In this document: positions 3,877 through 17,945 of the stretch, in pieces
Position numbering within the stretch: the stretch's first letter is position 1
Layout: each line of letters opens with the position of its first letter
Source of the DNA: an uncultured Gammaproteobacteria bacterium
Lineage (GTDB): Bacteria; Patescibacteriota; Microgenomatia; UBA8517
Assembly (NCBI GenBank): GCA_965231135.1
Contig: OZ246419.1
Span: forward strand, 577,488-641,487
Length of the DNA stretch: 64,000 nucleotides
Direction of reading: 5' to 3'
Made by a program: the position numbers and the translations under genes
Notes under the pieces: generated by a model
Told to the model about the DNA's origin: nothing
What the model saw: only the letters and a program-made list of their open reading frames with translations
Database searches by the model: none

Positions 3877-3950
3877 GGGCGGTTAGCTCAGTTGGCTAGA
3901 GCGCTTTCTTGACGTGAAAGAGGTCGGGGGTTCGAGCCCCTCATCGCCCA
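3877..3950 (+). tRNA. tRNA-Val (anticodon GAC)
   Basis: The sequence folds as a cloverleaf: acceptor GGGCGGT/ATCGCCC, D-stem GCTC/GAGC, anticodon stem CTTTC/GAAAG with loop TTGACGT, T-arm GGGGG-TTCGAGC-CCCTC, and discriminator A. No CCA is encoded. Confidence 0.85.
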
Positions 3951-3951
3951 C
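3902..3951 (+). repeat. attL: 50-bp direct repeat (3' part of tRNA-Val), identical to 11087..11136
   Basis: An exact 50/50 match, 'cgctttcttgacgtgaaagaggtcgggggttcgagcccctcatcgcccac', appears at both sites. Confidence 0.85.
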
Positions 3952-3975: not shown

Positions 3976-5052
3976 GTGACAACGGCAGTCCGCTACAGAC
4001 GGCATAACGCTCAGGTGGTAACTCTCGGGAAGTTAGAAGCAATCCCTTGGGTTGCTATGGCTAACTTACAAGGTAAACATTTAGAAATCATATTAACTAA
4101 GTATCTTCAATGGTGCAAAATTGAACGTGGTCTTGCAAAGCAAACAGTTGCTGGGAAAAAACAGACTCTTGGCCATTTTTTGAAATATCTTGACGGCGAA
4201 AAATTGACGTTGAAGACTTCCAAAGATTATATGTATCATTTAAGTTCCGATTTGGGTTGGTCGGCAAATGGAATCAGAAGTGACTTTAATTCAAAAGTTA
4301 AACCATTTATTCATTGGCTTTTTGAAACAAAATATATAAAGATTGATTGGTCCAAAAAGATTAAGGTTCCCAAAGCACAACCAAAACAATATCCAGTAGT
4401 AAGTTTCGAAGAGCTAGATAAAACCATCTTCGCTGGAACCTCATTCACAGAAAAGGACTGTAAGCTTGCTAAAGAACGAAGGCTGGAAAACAGGGAAGCC
4501 TTACTCTTCGAAGCCAGAACAGGTTTAAGAATCGGGGCAATTATTGGACTCAAGAAAGAAGATGTCAATCTCAACTCTATCCCAGCAACTTTTAATGTTT
4601 ACAGTAAAGGTAAATTTCATACTGGCATAGTTCCTCCCGACTTAATTGAAATGATGAAAAGAAGATGTGTTGGCCCTGGAAAAGTTTTCAATGTTTATGG
4701 CGGCAGTCTTAATCACTATATAAGAAGAGGTTGCGAGAAGTTGGGAATATCAAATGATTTCCATTTCCATACCATGCGGCACAGTTTTGCCACAAGTTTA
4801 TTAAATAACGGGACAGATATTAGTATGGTAAGCAAAATCCTGGGTCATAGCAGTATTGGCATCACCGCAGACATTTATAGCCATTATTCCGTGCAAGACA
4901 AAGCCAGGGTTATTAATTCAATTCCTACAGTAAGAAAGTCTCTATCCACAGAGGAAAGGGCAAAAATAGTTATAGAAAAACTACAAAAAGACTTTGGTAT
5001 TATCAAATACACAAGAAAAGGTGAAAAACTAACAATTAATATCAAAATATAA
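3976..5052 (+). CDS. int: tyrosine recombinase / phage-type integrase
   Basis: The C-terminal catalytic signature is 'HTMRHSFATSLL...ILGHSSIGITADIYSHY'. The track begins at a GTG at 3976. An ATG at about 4054 is an alternative start. Confidence 0.85.
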   Translation: MTTAVRYRRHNAQVVTLGKLEAIPWVAMANLQGKHLEIILTKYLQWCKIERGLAKQTVAGKKQTLGHFLKYLDGEKLTLKTSKDYMYHLSSDLGWSANGIRSDFNSKVKPFIHWLFETKYIKIDWSKKIKVPKAQPKQYPVVSFEELDKTIFAGTSFTEKDCKLAKERRLENREALLFEARTGLRIGAIIGLKKEDVNLNSIPATFNVYSKGKFHTGIVPPDLIEMMKRRCVGPGKVFNVYGGSLNHYIRRGCEKLGISNDFHFHTMRHSFATSLLNNGTDISMVSKILGHSSIGITADIYSHYSVQDKARVINSIPTVRKSLSTEERAKIVIEKLQKDFGIIKYTRKGEKLTINIKI

Positions 5053-6798
5053 TTAGGAATAGTATTTTTGTAAGTCTCTCATCGGATCGTTATCTAAATC
5101 TGGGCCGACAGGTAACTTCTTCTTCCTAAGCAATTTAAGGGCATGTTTTAGATATTTCTTCTCAACAATTAATTCATGATTGGTTTTAGAAATTGCAAAA
5201 AAATCATGACTATCTAATGTCACTTCCTTTCTAGCTAGTTTTAAAAAAAGTTCAATTCTCGGAACAATAACTATTCTTTCCATAAACACCTTATCAGATT
5301 TATATGCATTTTCTAACCAATCTAATAAGTGTTGATGCACTGGCAATGCAGCAGCACCTGGAACAATCATGACGTTCGAAGGAGAAAAAAGTACAGCCTT
5401 ACGATCTTTAGATATACGAAAATGTAACATCTTGAATCTTTTTCCTTTGGAATCGTTTTCAGCGTTAGTCCAAAACTGAAAAATAGTAAGTGCTGGAAGA
5501 GGTTTGCCACTTCCTTTCTCAAAATTTATAACAATGCTATGTATTCCTGTTAAACCGAGAGCTACTTTCTTATCTGCATAATTTTCAAGGTTGATTAAAA
5601 TATAAATCGAATCAACGACTGCCTTTATTCTATCAATCTTATCAATTAAGTAGTCCACTTTATAAATTTTCCCTGAAGATTTTATTTTGATTACTTCCCT
5701 TTTCATGTCAATCAAATAATCATTATGGCCAGAAGTACTATTTCTCAACCCTGCATCATAAGCCATTCTTATTTTTCGCTTAAGAATAAGATCAGGGCAA
5801 TCATCAATTATCTTTTTGATCATTAAACCTTTCTTGTTTCCAATTTTTAAACCATTGTATTTTTTGCCAGCAAAAGGATTTAACATAAAAGATCCACCGT
5901 TACAAATATTTATAATGTTGTAAATTATATTAAGAACCTCGCTAATCTCAAAATAAGCTTGGTAAGCATCTAAGGCTATTTGGTAACTTCTCTTTTCAAC
6001 TTCCTTAACATCATTCATCCTCAACCTTTCCACAGGTACGAAACCACCGGTAATTCGCCTATAAGCCTCCTCTGATCGTAAATTATCTGATTCTTGTATT
6101 TTATTTAGTCCTATTTCTACCGATTCGAATAAAGTAGTGTAAGTTTTATCTTCGAAAAACATTTTGAGTGCTTTCTTGTATTCAGAAGGATTAACTTTCT
6201 CAGCCCGCTCAAATAAATTGTTAAATGCACTTACATAAGGTACTTTATATTTCTTTCTTTTATTTACAGAAGTAGATGAACGATACTCATTAAGAAATAG
6301 CATATATTGCAGTCGCCACAGTCCGTAGTCAAAACTATAAAAACTATCTGTAGGCAATAATCCAGCACCTAACTTATAAGCCTGAGCTGGATTTTCAATT
6401 AACAACTTACTAATCATGTTGGTTCTATTTCTAATTTGAGAATTAATCGAAGATATTGAGTTTACAAAACCTTCTTTATGCCAGCATTCAGCAAGAGGTC
6501 TTTTTAGATGCAAAAGTTTTGATCTCTTCACATACTGTCTAGTTAACATCACAAGCGCACCACACGTACACCTGTGCAGTTGTATACTCGAAGAATCATC
6601 ACTAAGAGCTTTCTCTACGCTCAACCAGAAACTACCAGCATATGGCAAACTCTTATAAACACCTTCCAGATAGCGAATATCCAACTGGTCTAGTTCCCTA
6701 ACTCTAGTTTCCGACTTCATAACATGATTATATTCGTTGTGTAAAGATATTTTAAAAAAGACATCTCTTAGGATGAATAATCCCCTGACTGTTTCCAC
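5053..6798 (-). CDS. large hypothetical protein, island cargo of unknown function
   Basis: The 581-aa ORF has no recognisable motif. The start may be the internal Met at about 6720. Confidence 0.4.
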   Translation of the reverse strand: METVRGLFILRDVFFKISLHNEYNHVMKSETRVRELDQLDIRYLEGVYKSLPYAGSFWLSVEKALSDDSSSIQLHRCTCGALVMLTRQYVKRSKLLHLKRPLAECWHKEGFVNSISSINSQIRNRTNMISKLLIENPAQAYKLGAGLLPTDSFYSFDYGLWRLQYMLFLNEYRSSTSVNKRKKYKVPYVSAFNNLFERAEKVNPSEYKKALKMFFEDKTYTTLFESVEIGLNKIQESDNLRSEEAYRRITGGFVPVERLRMNDVKEVEKRSYQIALDAYQAYFEISEVLNIIYNIINICNGGSFMLNPFAGKKYNGLKIGNKKGLMIKKIIDDCPDLILKRKIRMAYDAGLRNSTSGHNDYLIDMKREVIKIKSSGKIYKVDYLIDKIDRIKAVVDSIYILINLENYADKKVALGLTGIHSIVINFEKGSGKPLPALTIFQFWTNAENDSKGKRFKMLHFRISKDRKAVLFSPSNVMIVPGAAALPVHQHLLDWLENAYKSDKVFMERIVIVPRIELFLKLARKEVTLDSHDFFAISKTNHELIVEKKYLKHALKLLRKKKLPVGPDLDNDPMRDLQKYYS

Positions 6799-6995
6799 AA
6801 ATGAGCACGACCTTCACCTTTTACTCTAGGCATGATGTCACGAAGAGGAGTCTTACGATCTGTCAACTTGACGATCTCAGCTTCCAAGTCTTGACGTGCC
6901 AATAAAGAATTAGGAATAGGACCTGCAAAGCCACCTACGTCCACGTTCTTAGCAAAAAGATTCAATACTGCTTCTGGATCAATTGGATTGTTCAT
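6768..6995 (-). CDS. hypothetical small protein in a locally GC-richer segment
   Basis: The 75-aa ORF is noticeably more GC-rich than its flanks. No motif was recognised. Confidence 0.2.
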   Translation of the reverse strand: MNNPIDPEAVLNLFAKNVDVGGFAGPIPNSLLARQDLEAEIVKLTDRKTPLRDIMPRVKGEGRAHLWKQSGDYSS

Positions 6996-7007: not shown

Positions 7008-7036
7008 TTGACAAAGCCTGTAGTAAAGAATATATT
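7008..7036 (+). promoter_or_regulatory. sigma70-like promoter for the precursor operon
   Basis: TTGACA (7008-7013), a 17-nt spacer, then TATATT (7031-7036). An SD 'aaggtga' lies 8 nt before the ATG at 7072. Confidence 0.45.
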
Positions 7037-7071: not shown

Positions 7072-7269
7072 ATGAGTAGAGAAGAAAGAAATCTAATAGA
7101 TGCATTACCACAACAAAATATTGGCGTTGCCATTAAAGGCCAGGATTGTGAACAAAGCTGTGGAAGTTGTAATAGCTGTGCCTGTGGAGACAATAGCTGT
7201 GGAAGTTGTTCATCGTGTGCTGATTGTGGATGCAATTGTTCAAATAGAGAAGGCAATATAACTAAATAG
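7072..7269 (+). CDS. RiPP precursor peptide (LAP/TOMM type), Cys/Ser/Gly-rich core
   Basis: The 65-aa peptide has a leader 'MSREERNLIDALPQQNIGVAIKGQD' and a core 'CEQSCGSCNSCACGDNSCGSCSSCADCGCNCS...'. It sits immediately upstream of the YcaO and SagB-like genes. Confidence 0.75.
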   Translation: MSREERNLIDALPQQNIGVAIKGQDCEQSCGSCNSCACGDNSCGSCSSCADCGCNCSNREGNITK

Positions 7270-7317: not shown

Positions 7318-8625
7318 ATGAAAAATAATACCGTCAATACCATCAAAGAAATAGCATCTGCTTTACAGGATATTAAATTAGTTGAATCTTTTCAAAGAAC
7401 TCGTTTGCATTATGACGAGCCTAAGTTTTGGTTTTATTCTACAATCATAAACGATAAATATTTAAAGCACCAAGGGCAGCATTTTAGTTCTAATTCTTCT
7501 GGAGTATCTTTTTTTTCTCAAAATAAAGCCGTACTTAAATCACTATTTGAAGCGTTGGAAAGATATAGCAACTTTGCTTTCTTTAAAAAAGATATAGATT
7601 TCGTTGGAAGATTTGTTGATATCAAAACTAATGCAATTAATCCCGAATCCTTCTCGTATTTTTCGGAAAAACAATTAAATAATCCAGAATATAAAAAATT
7701 TAAAATAAACGATAAATCTAGATTTGATTGGACAAAGGTTAAATTATTAACCGACGGTAAGGAATATCTTGTACCCTGCCAGACAATATATCTTTCCTAC
7801 AAATTAATTAAGGGAGAGCCTACATTTTATCCTTCGATTAGTACAGGCGTAGCTGCTCATTCTGATTTGGACTCTGCAATTTTAGGAGGTATTTATGAGG
7901 TAATAGAGAGAGATTCTTTTATGATTTATTATTTAAATAAATTAAAACCAAAAAAATACAATTTAAAATCTTCTAAGAACAAAAAAATTCGCTCTCTGGC
8001 GGAAATTACCGAAAGATATCATATGGAATTATATTGTCTTGATATAACTACAGATTTAGGAATACCGACTGTGGCTTCCATTTTAATCGATCGATCGGGA
8101 TTAAGTAAGGCAGTTTCTGTAGGGTTAAAATCAAATTTAAATGTTGAAAAAGCTATCATTGGTTCAATTAACGAGGCCTACCATACAAGAAGTTGGATAA
8201 GAGAAGCATATATTCAAAATCCAACAAATATTACAGAAAAAGAGTTGCTTGAAAGTTCTAGTATGAAAAATAGAGGATTGCTTTGGTATAAACCTGAATC
8301 AATTTCTCATATTAACTTTTTAATTAAAGCGTTGAGATCTGAAGTTATTACCTTAAAAAATAATAATTTATCTGTAAAGGAACAAATCAGATATTTAAAT
8401 GACAGTTTAAATAAAGCTGGTTATAAAATTTATTATAAAGATATTACTCCTGAATATTTCAAAAATATCCATTTCAAAGCAGTAAAAGTAATAATACCTG
8501 GCATGCAACCATTATACTTAGAAGAAAAATTCGCACTTCGTGGAGGTAATAGATTGCACGCTGTTCCCGTTAAGTTGGGGTATAAAAATATTAGATTAAA
8601 CACCTACCCACATCCGTTTTTATGA
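7318..8625 (+). CDS. YcaO-domain cyclodehydratase (TOMM D protein)
   Basis: The YcaO ATP-binding motif is 'STGVAAHSDLDSAILGGIYEVIERD'. The C-terminus carries a Pro-rich 'YPHPFL' motif. Confidence 0.85.
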   Translation: MKNNTVNTIKEIASALQDIKLVESFQRTRLHYDEPKFWFYSTIINDKYLKHQGQHFSSNSSGVSFFSQNKAVLKSLFEALERYSNFAFFKKDIDFVGRFVDIKTNAINPESFSYFSEKQLNNPEYKKFKINDKSRFDWTKVKLLTDGKEYLVPCQTIYLSYKLIKGEPTFYPSISTGVAAHSDLDSAILGGIYEVIERDSFMIYYLNKLKPKKYNLKSSKNKKIRSLAEITERYHMELYCLDITTDLGIPTVASILIDRSGLSKAVSVGLKSNLNVEKAIIGSINEAYHTRSWIREAYIQNPTNITEKELLESSSMKNRGLLWYKPESISHINFLIKALRSEVITLKNNNLSVKEQIRYLNDSLNKAGYKIYYKDITPEYFKNIHFKAVKVIIPGMQPLYLEEKFALRGGNRLHAVPVKLGYKNIRLNTYPHPFL

Positions 8626-9392
8626 AAAACGATAAAACAATAAACATACTTAAAAAGCTAGAGCTTTCATCTTCAATAAAATTTAATAATAGTATTAAGA
8701 TAAAGAATTTTAGTAAAACAAAAACTTCATATAGTGCTTGGCCTGAGCAGTGGAAGAAGGTTTATTACAAAGCATATCCTAAATTTCCTCAAGTTTTGTT
8801 ACCTGATCCAGCAAGAGCACGCTGGAGCTTAGATGATGCATTGATTAAACGAAAATCTCAAAGAGAATTTACAAAAAAAGATATAAAAATCCAAGATCTC
8901 TCTACTTTGCTGTATTTTTCAAGCGGTTTAAAAGAACTTTTGTTTAAAGGATCTGGAGAAAGAAGGTTTTATCCTTCTGCAGGAGCTAGGTATCCTTTAG
9001 AAATTTATCCAGTCATTTTTAATGCGGAAAGCATTAAACCTGCAATTTATCATTATCATGTTAAAAGTCATTCTTTAGAAGAAATATATAGCAATAGTTT
9101 TGTAGCGCAAATAATTAAGCAGTTTAATCAACCATGGATACGTAAGTCTTCAATGTTAATTGTTGTTTCAGCTGTTTTTGAAAGGACTGATAACAAATAC
9201 GGAGATAGGGGGCTAAGACATATATTTACCGAATATGGTCATTATGCTCAAAATATTTACCTGATTTCACAAGAGCTAGGCCTTGGTTCATGTTCTATAG
9301 GCGGATTTATTGACGATGGATTGAACAAATTATTGGATTTTGACCCAATAGATGAAAGTGTAATTGGTGTTATTGCAATAGGAACTTTATAG
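8622..9392 (+). CDS. SagB-type dehydrogenase (azoline oxidase, TOMM B protein; nitroreductase fold)
   Basis: Signature motifs 'KRKSQREF', 'PSAGARYPLEIY' and 'YHYHVKSHSL' are present. An ATGA overlap links it to the ycaO gene. Confidence 0.85.
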   Translation: MKNDKTINILKKLELSSSIKFNNSIKIKNFSKTKTSYSAWPEQWKKVYYKAYPKFPQVLLPDPARARWSLDDALIKRKSQREFTKKDIKIQDLSTLLYFSSGLKELLFKGSGERRFYPSAGARYPLEIYPVIFNAESIKPAIYHYHVKSHSLEEIYSNSFVAQIIKQFNQPWIRKSSMLIVVSAVFERTDNKYGDRGLRHIFTEYGHYAQNIYLISQELGLGSCSIGGFIDDGLNKLLDFDPIDESVIGVIAIGTL

Positions 9393-9405: not shown

Positions 9406-10059
9406 ATGTTTTTATTTCTTGTTAGACATGCAGAAGCTGACGGTGTAAAGGATCGTTGGCAAGCTCCAAATTCAAAGTTAAGTAAATTAGGTGAACAACA
9501 GGCAGGAGCTTTGGCTAATCAGCTTAAGTCATTCAAGATAGATCAAATATTCTCTAGTGATTTAGAAAGATCTACTCAAACAGCAGATATTATTTCCAAA
9601 AAAATCGGAGTAGAAACTAGCATCTTAGATTATATTTGTGAAAGACAGCAGTTAGATGAAATGTATGGAGCACAAAGAGAAAGTAATATATCAAAAAAAT
9701 ATATTGAAGAATCTCGCCATAATTTCAATAATCTTGATTGGAAATTTGAAGATAAGGAAGAATCTGTACGTGAGGTTATAAATCGCACTATGGAATTAAC
9801 CTCATTTTTAACGAAAAACTTCCAAGGTAAAAGAGTAGCAATTGTTTCGCATGATTTATTTATTAGATGTTTAATCAGTAGAATTTTGTTAGGTAAGGAT
9901 TATTCTGACACACAAATGGCTAGGAGCATTAACACATTAACCATAGACAATACTGGTTTGTCGTTATTAATCCATAGTAGTCAGTTCCAAATGTGGAAAA
10001 TTAATTACATCAATAATTATTCGCACTTTAAAGACATAAGAATAAATAACCGTCAATAA
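9406..10059 (+). CDS. histidine phosphatase family protein (PGAM-like)
   Basis: The N-terminal catalytic motif is 'LVRHAEA' of the RHG family. It is the last gene of the cluster operon. Confidence 0.65.
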   Translation: MFLFLVRHAEADGVKDRWQAPNSKLSKLGEQQAGALANQLKSFKIDQIFSSDLERSTQTADIISKKIGVETSILDYICERQQLDEMYGAQRESNISKKYIEESRHNFNNLDWKFEDKEESVREVINRTMELTSFLTKNFQGKRVAIVSHDLFIRCLISRILLGKDYSDTQMARSINTLTIDNTGLSLLIHSSQFQMWKINYINNYSHFKDIRINNRQ

Positions 10060-10997
10060 TTTTTCCAAACTTCTTCATTATCAACATATTTTAAAACTTT
10101 GCCGTGTGTCTCCTTTGCTGTTGATAAATAAGGACTACTGTTCCTGTAAAAATAAGTTAAAGCTCTTGAAGATATGAAAAGCAAATAGAAGGCGAGGTTC
10201 GACCTTTCAGATTCAGATAATCTTTCTCCTGAGAGGTACCCGTTTAAGAAAGTTGAAAAGTCATCTTTTGGTCTATCAGTTCGAATCTGGTGAAATAAAT
10301 AGTATCCAATATCATTTAACCATGTTTCCTCTGTCCACTCTCCAAAATCTATTAATACTGGAATATTTTCCTCGGTAACAATAACCTGGCCATCATGTAA
10401 ATCATTGTGGTTAAAAGTTGGCTGTGTTTCGTTGCAAAACTGCTCCATTAAATCTCTAAAGCTTTTAATTAGTGCATAAGATTTACTGTCAATATTAATT
10501 TCTTCAAGACCAACTCGTGACCAATTAAAAATATATTTATCATAGTAAGCAAATGAATTTCTACCTGTTGCTTTCCAACTATCACCAGTAACCTGCGCTG
10601 TATTATGCATTATTCTGATTTGATTGCCTAATTTATCCTTAATCCCTGGATTTGGATTAAAATACAAACTTTTTCCATGAATACGTGTTGATACCAGTGC
10701 TAGATGATCTTGATTGTAATTAACAAGTGCAATAGGTGAAGGTGTTGCAATACCTGTAGAATGTGCCGTATTTAAACCTCTCCACTCATGTTCAGCTTGA
10801 TTCTTACGTGCAGTCTTTTTAATTACAACATCCATACCAGATTGTGTTCTAGCATAGATAATTTCACCGCCAGTAAACGGTATTTTATTTTTTTCAGTAA
10901 TTTCAAGATCAATTGAACTTGCATATTTTTCAAGTGAGCTTTGGACAGTTGCAAAATGTTCTGTAGACATACAAATGATTATATCAATGCATATCAA
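10053..10997 (-). CDS. aminoglycoside phosphotransferase / protein-kinase-like fold phosphotransferase
   Basis: The catalytic loop 'HNDLHDGQVIV' (HxDxxxxN) and a DFG-like 'LIDFGEW' are present. Confidence 0.6.
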   Translation of the reverse strand: MICIDIIICMSTEHFATVQSSLEKYASSIDLEITEKNKIPFTGGEIIYARTQSGMDVVIKKTARKNQAEHEWRGLNTAHSTGIATPSPIALVNYNQDHLALVSTRIHGKSLYFNPNPGIKDKLGNQIRIMHNTAQVTGDSWKATGRNSFAYYDKYIFNWSRVGLEEINIDSKSYALIKSFRDLMEQFCNETQPTFNHNDLHDGQVIVTEENIPVLIDFGEWTEETWLNDIGYYLFHQIRTDRPKDDFSTFLNGYLSGERLSESERSNLAFYLLFISSRALTYFYRNSSPYLSTAKETHGKVLKYVDNEEVWKNY

Positions 10998-11086: not shown

Positions 11087-11136
11087 CGCTTTCTTGACGT
11101 GAAAGAGGTCGGGGGTTCGAGCCCCTCATCGCCCAC
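11087..11136 (+). repeat. attR: 50-bp direct repeat (partial tRNA-Val 3' end)
   Basis: It is identical to 3902..3951. No 5' half of a tRNA is present here. Confidence 0.85.
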
Positions 11137-17785: not shown

Positions 17786-17807
17786 GGGCCTGTCGTTCAA
17801 TGGTAAG
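17786..17807 (+). repeat. 22-nt duplicate of the tRNA-Ala 5' end (partial tRNA remnant)
   Basis: 'gggcctgtcgttcaatggta' is identical to 17838..17859. No T-arm follows. Confidence 0.5.
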
Positions 17808-17837: not shown

Positions 17838-17908
17838 GGGCCTGTCGTTCAATGGTAGGACACCTGGCTGGCAGTCAGGGAACTGGGGTTCGATTCCCCA
17901 TGGGTCCA
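17838..17908 (+). tRNA. tRNA-Ala (anticodon GGC)
   Basis: The 71-nt sequence folds as a cloverleaf: acceptor with a G3:U70 pair, anticodon loop CTGGCAG, T-arm TGGGG-TTCGATT-CCCCA, and discriminator A. Confidence 0.7.
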
Positions 17909-17945
17909 CACTTGTAATATAAAATATTTTTTATATAATTCATTT

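What the first reader, a model, noticed from the sequence alone, without database searches (positions are those of the whole stretch)
7318..9392. YcaO cyclodehydratase and SagB-type dehydrogenase without a recognisable E1-like/C partner
The YcaO carries the ATP-binding motif and the C-terminal PxP-like motif. The SagB-type dehydrogenase carries 'PSAGARYPLEIY' and is translationally coupled to it by an ATGA overlap. No ThiF/E1-like or 'ocin-ThiF' docking protein or RRE is recognisable in the island. The YcaO is too short, at 435 aa, to be a C-D fusion. The 581-aa unknown protein (5053-6798) or the YcaO N-terminal 170 aa might supply leader recognition. This would be a non-canonical partner arrangement.
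Basis: inference. Interest (0 to 1): 0.6.

Follow-up and report, generated by a model that had tools for sequence, protein, structure and literature searches.

The report
Partner-less azole-peptide cassette on mobile island
A small mobile island in a Patescibacteria (CPR) genome carries a gene set for a thiazole/oxazole-modified peptide that, like its whole enzyme clade, lacks the usual leader-binding helper protein, and the 581-aa protein proposed as a substitute is an unrelated island gene.

Summary
7318-8625 is a SagD-family YcaO and 8622-9392 is a SagB-type dehydrogenase, joined by an ATGA overlap. A 65-aa precursor with 11 Cys lies just upstream (7072-7269). A perfect 50-nt direct repeat of the tRNA-Val 3' end (3902-3951 and 11087-11136) bounds a 7.2-kb integrated island, and nothing in it matches an E1-like, Ocin-ThiF, TfuA or PqqD/RRE family.

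- The 581-aa ORF (really 555 aa) is absent from about 80 related YcaO loci, and the relatives I looked up lie among mobile-element genes. It shows no profile similarity to C proteins. Its confident model (pLDDT 93) has no PDB match.
- The YcaO aligns end to end with C-dependent D proteins, so it has no room for an added RRE.

Partner absence is a clade trait. 41 of 44 loci in the window's YcaO clade (mostly CPR and DPANN) have no C gene within ±10 kb, against 1 of 32 in the canonical sister clade.

The conserved unit is precursor, YcaO, SagB, histidine phosphatase and APH-like kinase. All five genes are conserved and, where computable, under purifying selection. In other genomes the unit is inserted alone between direct repeats.

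CPR clusters with YcaO plus nitroreductase were already reported in 2020. This is a new variant of a known kind, of moderate interest.

The parts
3877..3951 (+). tRNA-Val (GAC). Its last 50 nt (3902-3951) form the left attachment repeat (attL) of the island.
   Evidence: ARAGORN; perfect 50-nt direct repeat with 11087-11136.
3976..5052 (+). Tyrosine recombinase (island integrase), 358 aa.
   Evidence: Pfam Phage_integrase 5.9e-21; PHROG 1 integrase 3.9e-36. Absent from all related YcaO loci.
5053..6720 (-). It is not part of the peptide pathway.
   Evidence: No Pfam, NCBIfam, PHROG, PADLOC or PDB sequence hit. 54 distant relatives found, and the contexts looked up are mobile-element-like. AF2 pLDDT 93.4 with no Foldseek match in PDB or BFVD. 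hhalign against C proteins 0.1%.
6768..6995 (-). 75-aa ORF upstream of the 555-aa gene. Unknown function, possibly a gene fragment.
   Evidence: Only a weak match to the N-terminal part of a 491-position PHROG profile of unknown function (E 3.7e-4). Absent from related loci.
7008..7036 (+). Promoter-like site (TTGACA-17-TATATT) ahead of the precursor gene.
   Evidence: 11 of 12 consensus match. The number of such sites in the region is not above chance, so this is only suggestive.
7072..7269 (+). Precursor peptide, 65 aa: leader MSREERNLIDALPQQN..., core with 11 Cys, 8 Ser and 1 Thr (…DCEQSCGSCNSCACGDNSCGSCSSCADCGCNCSNREGNITK).
   Evidence: Translation. Conserved precursors at the same position in L001, L002, L004, L005, L009, L010 and L013. 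dN/dS 0.13-0.17.
7318..8625 (+). SagD-family YcaO cyclodehydratase (D protein), 435 aa.
8622..9392 (+). SagB-type FMN dehydrogenase (B protein), 256 aa, coupled to the YcaO gene by an ATGA overlap.
9406..10059 (+). Histidine-phosphatase-superfamily enzyme, 217 aa, a conserved member of the cassette.
   Evidence: Pfam His_Phos_1 2.3e-30. Nearest solved relative is phosphoserine phosphatase PspA, 4IJ5. Follows SagB in 10 related loci, with identity that tracks the YcaO.
10053..10970 (-). APH-family kinase-like protein, 305 aa (the ORF runs to a TTG at 10997), convergent with the operon. A conserved member of the cassette.
   Evidence: Pfam APH 6.9e-11. HNDLHDGQ and IDFG motifs are in the sequence. 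Conserved next to the phosphatase in 11 related loci besides the window.
11087..11136 (+). Right attachment repeat (attR): a 50-nt copy of the tRNA-Val 3' end with no tRNA gene.

Best explanation
A 7.2-kb island integrated at tRNA-Val in a Patescibacteria genome (GCA_035549555.1) carries a self-contained five-gene cassette for a linear azol(in)e-containing peptide (LAP).

The 65-aa precursor has a conserved leader motif (R-x-L-x-x-A-x-P-Q-Q-N) and a core with 11 Cys. The SagD-family YcaO cyclodehydrates it with ATP to thiazolines, and possibly oxazolines. The translationally coupled SagB flavoenzyme oxidises these to azoles.

No E1-like (C), Ocin-ThiF (F) or RRE protein takes part. This YcaO belongs to a clade, mostly CPR and DPANN, in which the partner gene is absent from the locus, while the D and B proteins keep the same length and architecture as partner-dependent ones. 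The D protein, or a D-B complex, must therefore engage the leader directly and be active on its own.

The co-evolving APH-like kinase, which has its own convergent transcription unit, and the phosphoserine-phosphatase-like enzyme most likely phosphorylate and dephosphorylate a Ser or Thr of the peptide, for self-protection or activation. The integrase, the 555-aa protein and ORF75 are island backbone or cargo, not pathway components.

Shown here: gene identities, island borders, clade-wide absence of C, collinearity, conservation and purifying selection.
Inferred: partner-independent catalysis, direct leader recognition, and the roles of the kinase and phosphatase.
For: Identities.

Island borders: tRNA-Val plus a perfect 50-nt repeat 7185 nt apart, with the integrase next to the tRNA.

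No partner: Pfam and NCBIfam scans of the island ORFs. A C-protein HMM finds nothing in the window six-frame translation (best E 1.1). The upstream proteins used to build that HMM are true SagC/E1-like proteins (TIGR03603, TIGR03882 and ThiF hits).

Clade trait: in the NJ tree of 76 YcaOs, the window's clade has a C hit within ±10 kb in 3 of 44 loci. Two are adjacent (archaeal L022 and L029) and one is a remote ThiF-like gene. The canonical clade has one in 31 of 32 loci. Among loci with at least 2.5 kb on both sides the counts are 3 of 31 against 26 of 26.

No hidden domain: hhalign of C-less against C-dependent YcaOs covers 2-434 to 3-437. The SagB N-terminal segment is no longer than in canonical B proteins, with a median of 77 against 89.5 residues. 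hhalign of the YcaO family against C proteins gives 0.3%.

Functional cassette: the same five genes recur in L001, L002, L004, L005, L009, L010 and L013 in different genomic contexts. dN/dS is at most 0.2 where computable, for YcaO, APH and the precursor, and dS is saturated. Catalytic residues are invariant.

Moves as a unit: in L005 the 4.3-kb cassette is bracketed by a 241-nt repeat (97%) of the pilC 3' end, and in L010 by a 61-nt repeat.

Precedents: bottromycin YcaOs act without partners (PMC7136475 and PMC8442711). CPR clusters of YcaO plus nitroreductase plus peptidase were reported by Sharrar et al. 2020 (PMC7298704).
Against: Only 64 kb of an 810-kb contig could be read, so a C or F gene elsewhere in the genome is not excluded.

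Two archaeal members of the same YcaO clade (L022, L029) do have an adjacent C gene, so partner dependence may not have been lost uniformly.

In characterised LAP synthetases a D protein alone is orders of magnitude less active (Cox et al. 2015, PMC4603692). The known partner-less YcaOs make one ring, not about ten.

The cassette has no leader peptidase and no exporter, which is odd for a secreted antibiotic.

There is no biochemical evidence for any step.
Confidence: 0.6

Rival explanations
1. The synthetase is canonical, and its E1-like/RRE partner (C or F protein) is encoded elsewhere in the genome and acts in trans.
For: Only 64 kb of the 810,692-bp contig was readable. Two members of the same YcaO clade keep an adjacent C gene (L022 and L029). 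C proteins raise D activity by orders of magnitude in studied systems (PMC4603692).
Against: The cassette sits on a 7.2-kb integrative island. Elsewhere it is a 4.3-kb insert between repeats, so it arrives in new genomes without a partner. 41 of 44 loci of the clade lack C within ±10 kb, while 31 of 32 canonical loci have it, usually as the gene directly upstream of the YcaO or fused to it. C and D are adjacent or fused in TOMM clusters generally (PMC4603692).
Confidence: 0.15
2. The 581-aa (555-aa) protein is a new kind of leader-binding partner.
For: It lies in the same island, 350 nt from the precursor gene, has no known family and has a confident model with no known fold match.
Against: It is absent from every related YcaO locus, including the seven that keep the full five-gene cassette. 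Its homologs lie beside a serine recombinase, HTH regulators, GIY-YIG, Bro-N and dUTPase genes without a YcaO. hhalign against C proteins gives 0.1%. It is on the opposite strand, in an operon with ORF75 next to the integrase.
Confidence: 0.03
3. In this subclade the APH-like kinase or the histidine phosphatase doubles as the substrate-docking partner of the YcaO.
For: Both co-evolve tightly with the YcaO and SagB, and their identity ranks run in parallel across 10-12 loci. They are inside the 4.3-kb mobile unit.
Against: Sister C-less subclades lack both. They carry an M16 peptidase, an ABC-F protein, an HprK-like kinase or TPR proteins instead, so neither can be the general solution. Both proteins are fully taken up by their catalytic domains. 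The catalytic motifs are intact.
Confidence: 0.07
4. The YcaO performs different chemistry (backbone thioamidation or amidine formation), or the cluster is a decaying remnant that lost its C gene.
For: There is a weak match to the McrA-glycine thioamidation YcaO model (92 bits against a cut-off of 365). Partner-less YcaOs of other chemistries are known.
Against: The SagD-family model is passed above its cut-off. There is a coupled SagB-type azoline oxidase with the KY motif. The core is rich in Cys and Ser. There is no TfuA. Selection is purifying and the active sites are intact in many genomes.
Confidence: 0.06

Closest known systems
Canonical LAP/TOMM azole synthetases (microcin B17 McbBCD, streptolysin S SagBCD, Bacillus BalhBCD)
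   Same: SagD-family YcaO above the NCBIfam cut-off, with a PxP C-terminus. SagB-type FMN dehydrogenase with the KY motif. Adjacent precursor with a leader and a Cys/Ser-rich core that includes SC and CS pairs. The D protein is collinear, residue for residue, with C-dependent D proteins.
   Different: There is no E1-like C protein with an RRE in the island, the window or the clade. There is no exporter, peptidase or pentapeptide-repeat immunity gene. There are kinase and phosphatase genes instead.
CPR LAP clusters reported by Sharrar et al. 2020 (mBio, PMC7298704; Microgenomates_ANG_785)
   Same: Patescibacteria host. The precursor is next to the YcaO, and a nitroreductase follows the YcaO. 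That paper counted 110 such clusters in 93 CPR genomes, 89 of them with the nitroreductase next to the YcaO. The M16-peptidase loci found here (L006, L014, L016, L018, L019, L021, L025, L042) have the gene content that paper describes.
   Different: The window's subclade replaces the peptidase with a histidine phosphatase and an APH-like kinase and rides on an integrative island. In the passages I read, the paper did not discuss the missing C or F partner.
Stand-alone YcaOs of bottromycin biosynthesis (BotC/BmbD and BotCD/PurCD)
   Same: Azoline-forming YcaO chemistry with no partner protein (PMC7136475 and PMC8442711).
   Different: These make a single thiazoline or a macroamidine. By published accounts they are divergent YcaOs; I did not compare their sequences here. 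They have no SagB-type dehydrogenase partner. Whether the present enzyme really works alone is untested.
Streptamidine AmiB/AmiD (a cryptic E1-like partner found only by fold prediction)
   Same: A YcaO cluster in which no partner was visible to conventional domain searches (PMC8442711). This is the reason I tested unannotated neighbours by profile and fold.
   Different: Here the only unannotated neighbour, the 555-aa protein, is not conserved with the YcaO and shows no E1/RRE similarity by hhalign or Foldseek.
F-protein-dependent systems (heterocycloanthracin, thiopeptides)
   Same: The leader-binding function is separated from the D protein (PMC4603692).
   Different: There is no Ocin-ThiF-like protein: TIGR03693 and TIGR03882 give no hit in the island.

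Membership tests
TOMM / linear azol(in)e-containing peptide (LAP) gene cluster | YcaO cyclodehydratase of the azoline-forming (SagD) type | tested here: met
   TIGR03604 at 259.5 bits against a cut-off of 219.25. Invariant ExxER and ExxERD segments and a PHPF C-terminus.
TOMM / linear azol(in)e-containing peptide (LAP) gene cluster | Precursor peptide with a leader and a Cys/Ser/Thr-rich core encoded nearby | tested here: met
   65-aa ORF 7072-7269 with 11 Cys, conserved in relatives, dN/dS 0.13-0.17.
TOMM / linear azol(in)e-containing peptide (LAP) gene cluster | FMN-dependent SagB-type dehydrogenase (present in azole-forming clusters) | tested here: met
   TIGR03605 at 141.7 bits against a cut-off of 78.4. 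KY motif present. PDB relatives are CyaGox and McbC.
TOMM / linear azol(in)e-containing peptide (LAP) gene cluster | Partner protein with an RRE (E1-like C protein, CD fusion, or Ocin-ThiF-like F protein) | tested here: not met
   No Pfam or NCBIfam hit in the island. The C-protein HMM gives best E 1.1 in the window six-frame translation. hhalign of the YcaO family and of the 555-aa family against C proteins gives 0.3% and 0.1%. The rest of the genome was not searchable.
TOMM / linear azol(in)e-containing peptide (LAP) gene cluster | Azole or azoline rings actually installed on the peptide | not testable with these tools
   This needs mass spectrometry of the product.
Stand-alone (partner-independent) YcaO systems | No C, F or TfuA partner encoded with the YcaO | tested here: met
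   Island and window scans. 41 of 44 loci of the clade lack C within ±10 kb.
Stand-alone (partner-independent) YcaO systems | Catalysis demonstrated without a partner | not testable with these tools
   This needs in vitro reconstitution or co-expression.
TfuA-associated thioamide-forming YcaO | Adjacent TfuA and a thioamidation-type YcaO | tested here: not met
   No TfuA hit in the island. TIGR03266 scores 92 bits against a cut-off of 365.
tRNA-integrated genomic island | Tyrosine integrase next to a tRNA gene, with a direct repeat of the tRNA 3' end at the far border | tested here: met
   tRNA-Val 3877-3951, integrase 3976-5052, perfect 50-nt repeat at 11087-11136.
tRNA-integrated genomic island | Observed empty site or excised circle | not tested
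   A 7,195-bp Logan contig (L134) spans exactly the island. Its ends fall 30 nt into each repeat, as expected from a de Bruijn graph break, so it is not evidence of excision.

The most novel reading that the evidence does not exclude
The mostly CPR/DPANN YcaO-SagB pair is a naturally partner-independent, processive polyazole synthetase. It would be a two-enzyme minimal LAP machine whose D protein, although collinear with C-dependent ones, binds the leader and is active by itself. It travels as a 4.3-kb mobile cassette together with a kinase and phosphatase pair that controls the peptide's activity by Ser/Thr phosphorylation.
Probability: 0.4. Interest if true: 0.65.

Novelty: new variant of a known kind. 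Interest (0 to 1): 0.45.

Why it matters
How the E1-like partner activates the YcaO, and whether leader recognition through an RRE is dispensable for multi-site azole formation, are standing questions in RiPP enzymology. Genome-mining pipelines often discard partner-less YcaO clusters (PMC7136475, PMC4603692).

A natural clade of D proteins that aligns residue for residue with partner-dependent ones but has no partner gene would give a direct comparison set for finding the activating changes. It would also give a very small (about 2 kb) azole-installing module for engineering.

It also shows that episymbiotic CPR bacteria, which have tiny genomes, acquire peptide-modification cassettes on mobile elements. 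If a partner turns up elsewhere in these genomes, the finding becomes an ordinary LAP cluster.

Tried and rejected
1. A first AF2 run of the 555-aa protein with a 2-sequence alignment gave pLDDT 37 and was unusable. It was redone with 41 sequences and gave pLDDT 93.4.
3. PHROGs, PADLOC, PDB sequence and PDB profile searches of the 555-aa family found nothing.
4. The 571-aa protein upstream of the YcaO in L002 and L003 was considered as a homolog of the 581-aa ORF. BLASTP shows no similarity.
5. ORF75 was considered as a small stand-alone RRE. It has no Pfam hit, is not conserved, and gives only a weak match to the N-terminal part of a long PHROG profile.
6. ORF75 was compared with the ORF upstream of P0122 and is unrelated.
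7. A scan of viral contigs for the YcaO found only distant, partial relatives (at most 32% identity), so there is no evidence that the cassette is phage-borne.
8. The 7,195-bp Logan contig was considered as a possible excised circle and rejected, because its ends match a graph break at the repeats.
9. dS is saturated for SagB and the phosphatase, so dN/dS could not be computed for them.
10. The YcaO Chem Rev 2017 review is not held in the library. Literature searches found no characterised C-less D+B polyazole system. The library lacks most subscription papers, so this is not proof that none exists.
11. I ran no further search on C proteins. Its top-120 listing could not show whether the same genome encodes one.
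Full report
**What is at the coordinates.**
ORF 7318-8625(+) encodes a 435-aa protein. It matches Pfam YcaO at E 1.5e-59. It passes NCBIfam's SagD-family model (TIGR03604, 259.5 bits, cut-off 219.25) over residues 67-434. Against solved structures it aligns to the YcaO domains of TruD, LynD and MusD, including the L-x-E-A-x-E-R-Y and E-x-x-E-R-D segments. In an alignment of 23 family members these glutamates and the C-terminal P-H-P-F-L are invariant.

ORF 8622-9392(+) is a 256-aa SagB-type dehydrogenase (TIGR03605, 141.7 bits, cut-off 78.4). It carries 'YPSAGARYPLEIY' and the conserved K192-Y193 pair. Its nearest solved relatives are azoline oxidases: CyaGox, McbC and BmdC. The two genes overlap by ATGA.

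Directly upstream, 7072-7269(+) encodes a 65-aa precursor, MSREERNLIDALPQQNIGVAIKGQDCEQSCGSCNSCACGDNSCGSCSSCADCGCNCSNREGNITK, with 11 Cys. A good −35/−10 match lies at 7008-7036, although the number of such sites in the region is not above chance.

**The island.**
tRNA-Val lies at 3877-3951. Its last 50 nt are repeated perfectly at 11087-11136, and a tyrosine integrase gene starts 25 nt after the tRNA. This is the signature of an integrated element of about 7.2 kb.

None of them hits an E1/ThiF, SagC, Ocin-ThiF, TfuA or PqqD/RRE model at E<=0.1. The host is a Patescibacteria MAG, GCA_035549555.1, on an 810,692-bp contig.

**Comparison with relatives.**
I first looked up six neighbourhoods of YcaO homologs by exact protein. 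I then fetched 80 loci from species-representative genomes. I called ORFs, clustered the neighbours and built an NJ tree of 76 YcaOs.

The tree splits into two clades. In the upper clade a protein of about 320-390 aa usually lies directly upstream of the YcaO, or is fused to it. Six representatives hit SagC (TIGR03603), the TOMM leader-binding domain (TIGR03882) and ThiF/MoeB models, so these are true C proteins. An HMM built from 22 of them finds a C gene within ±10 kb in 31 of 32 upper-clade loci.

In the window's clade it finds one in only 3 of 44 loci. Two are adjacent genes in archaeal loci (L022, L029) and one is a remote ThiF-like gene. Restricted to loci with at least 2.5 kb on both sides, the counts are 26 of 26 against 3 of 31. 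The same HMM finds nothing in a six-frame translation of the whole 64-kb window (best E 1.1).

The lack of a partner is thus a trait of a deep clade, mostly CPR and DPANN, and not a peculiarity of this island.

**No hidden partner domain.**
A profile-profile comparison of the C-less YcaO family with 17 C-dependent D proteins aligns residues 2-434 to 3-437 (probability 100%, E 2.9e-90). The N-terminal motif Y-D-E-P-K-F has weaker counterparts in canonical D proteins. The YcaO therefore has neither an extra domain nor room for an RRE, and its 'N-terminal 170 aa' is ordinary D-protein sequence.

The SagB segment before the nitroreductase core is no longer in C-less loci (median 77 residues) than in canonical ones (89.5). 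The phosphatase and the kinase are filled by their catalytic domains. hhalign of the YcaO family against C proteins gives 0.3%.

**The 581-aa protein.**
It has no Pfam, NCBIfam, PHROG, PADLOC or PDB sequence match. The word-index search found a single homolog, on a contig with a serine recombinase and no YcaO. The exhaustive search found 54 relatives. Two further contexts show HTH regulators, a DUF5677-hydrolase, DUF5659, GIY-YIG, HTH_17, Bro-N and dUTPase genes, again without a YcaO.

tblastn finds it, the integrase and ORF75 in none of the about 80 YcaO loci. The phosphatase and kinase, in contrast, are found in 10 and 12 loci (the window included), with identities that track the YcaO.

With a 41-sequence alignment AlphaFold gives pLDDT 93.4 and pTM 0.89. 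Foldseek finds no match in PDB (best E 0.44, TM at most 0.17) or in BFVD. hhalign against C proteins gives 0.1%. It is a mobile-element-associated protein of unknown and possibly new fold, and not the YcaO's partner.

**The functional unit.**
The five genes (precursor, YcaO, SagB, phosphatase, kinase) recur in the same order in L001, L002, L004, L005, L009, L010 and L013, in unrelated genomic surroundings. In L005 the 4.3-kb unit is bracketed by a 241-nt direct repeat (97%) of the 3' end of pilC, and in L010 by a 61-nt repeat. It therefore inserts as a unit without the window's integrase or the 555-aa gene.

dN/dS is 0.06-0.20 where computable (YcaO, the kinase and the precursor), with saturated dS. 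Precursors share the leader motif R-[DNS]-L-x-x-A-x-P-[QH]-Q-N and the core …SCG.CS.CACG..SCGSCSSCA.CGC….

Sister C-less subclades follow YcaO-SagB with an M16 peptidase, an ABC-F protein, an HprK-like kinase or TPR proteins. Many have Cys-rich precursors. Only A, D and B are universal.

**How it most likely works.**
Shown: a bona fide azoline-forming YcaO, an azoline oxidase and a polycysteine precursor, all conserved and, where computable, under purifying selection, with no cis-encoded partner.

Inferred: the YcaO, probably in a complex with the translationally coupled SagB, recognises the conserved leader directly and converts up to 11 Cys, and possibly some Ser, to azoles.

For the kinase and phosphatase I propose reversible Ser/Thr phosphorylation of the peptide. 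The phosphatase's nearest solved relative is a phosphoserine phosphatase. The kinase has its own convergent transcription unit. From my own knowledge, APH-family kinases protect producers of ribosome-targeting peptide antibiotics (viomycin, capreomycin), and class V lanthipeptide and thioamitide pathways use APH-like kinases on Ser/Thr. This part is speculative, at about 0.3.

The absence of an exporter and a leader peptidase from the cassette remains unexplained.

**Rivals.**
The main rival is a partner encoded elsewhere in the genome. I could not search the other 750 kb. The mobility of the cassette and the clade-wide pattern argue against it, but L022 and L029 show that C genes do occur within the clade. 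The other rivals are weak on the evidence given in the Rival explanations section: the 555-aa protein as partner, the kinase or phosphatase as docking protein, different chemistry, and a decayed remnant.

**Comparison with what is known.**
The cluster works like a LAP/TOMM synthetase. It meets every defining feature tested except the partner protein, so I file it as a partner-less variant, not a canonical member.

Partner-independent YcaOs are established for bottromycin. Cox et al. [quoted passage not shown] Later mining studies excluded them. Sharrar et al. 2020 already reported CPR LAP clusters with YcaO, nitroreductase and peptidase, 110 clusters in 93 genomes, and in the passages I read they did not discuss the missing partner. 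I found no paper that characterises a C-less D+B polyazole system, although the library is incomplete.

**Verdict.**
The island has no partner, but the proposed substitutes are wrong. Novelty: a new variant of a known kind. Interest: 0.45.

Noticed in passing
window 5053-6720 (-); relatives P0122-P0174, loci L007, L088-L090: The 555-aa island protein belongs to a small family (54 hits in 1.8 billion representatives). Its AlphaFold model is very confident (pLDDT 93.4, pTM 0.89), yet it has no Foldseek match in PDB or BFVD and no Pfam, PHROG or PADLOC hit. The relatives looked up lie in mobile-element or phage-like contexts. In L088 and L089 the gene lies between a DUF5677-hydrolase gene and a DUF5659 gene. 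It may be a new fold or a new mobile-element function.
   Followed up: partly
L005 9486-9726 and 13777-14017; L010 9528-9588 and 13855-13915: In two related genomes the five-gene cassette is inserted at the 3' end of the pilC (T2SSF) gene. It is bracketed by direct repeats of that gene end (241 nt at 97%, and 61 nt at 84%), and no integrase lies between the repeats.
   Followed up: partly
window 7072-7269 versus 7100-7261 (L133 4783-4944): The public annotation of GCA_035549555.1 calls a 53-aa ORF in the wrong frame across the precursor gene. The gene call on the Logan contig has the 65-aa Cys-rich precursor.
   Followed up: yes
L020 12214-13773; L026 5440-7161: In two sister C-less clusters an ABC-F-type protein (two ABC_tran domains plus ABC_tran_Xtn) directly follows YcaO-SagB. 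From my own knowledge, ABC-F proteins often protect ribosomes from antibiotics. This hints that some products of this clade target the ribosome.
   Followed up: no
L024 5392-6216, L031 8953-9819, L048 8482-10001: Another C-less subclade carries HprK/ScmC-like P-loop kinase homologs next to the YcaO. Kinases of two unrelated folds therefore recur beside these clusters.
   Followed up: no
window 17786-17805 and 17838-17857: The first 20 nt of tRNA-Ala (17838-17909) are repeated exactly 52 nt upstream. This may be a remnant of another integration or a duplication.
   Followed up: no
window 7156-7170 and 7195-7209: An exact 15-nt repeat (AGCTGTGGAAGTTGT, encoding SCGSC) lies inside the precursor core. 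It suggests that the core grew by internal duplication. L004 shows a similar 39-nt triplication.
   Followed up: no
L039, L033, L064, L036, L049, L044 (Saccharibacteria, Paceibacterota and unclassified bacterial MAG loci): The C-less YcaOs of this subclade come out 482-530 aa long with my ORF caller, 40-90 aa longer than the rest. I did not check whether this is a real N-terminal extension or an over-extended start codon.
   Followed up: no
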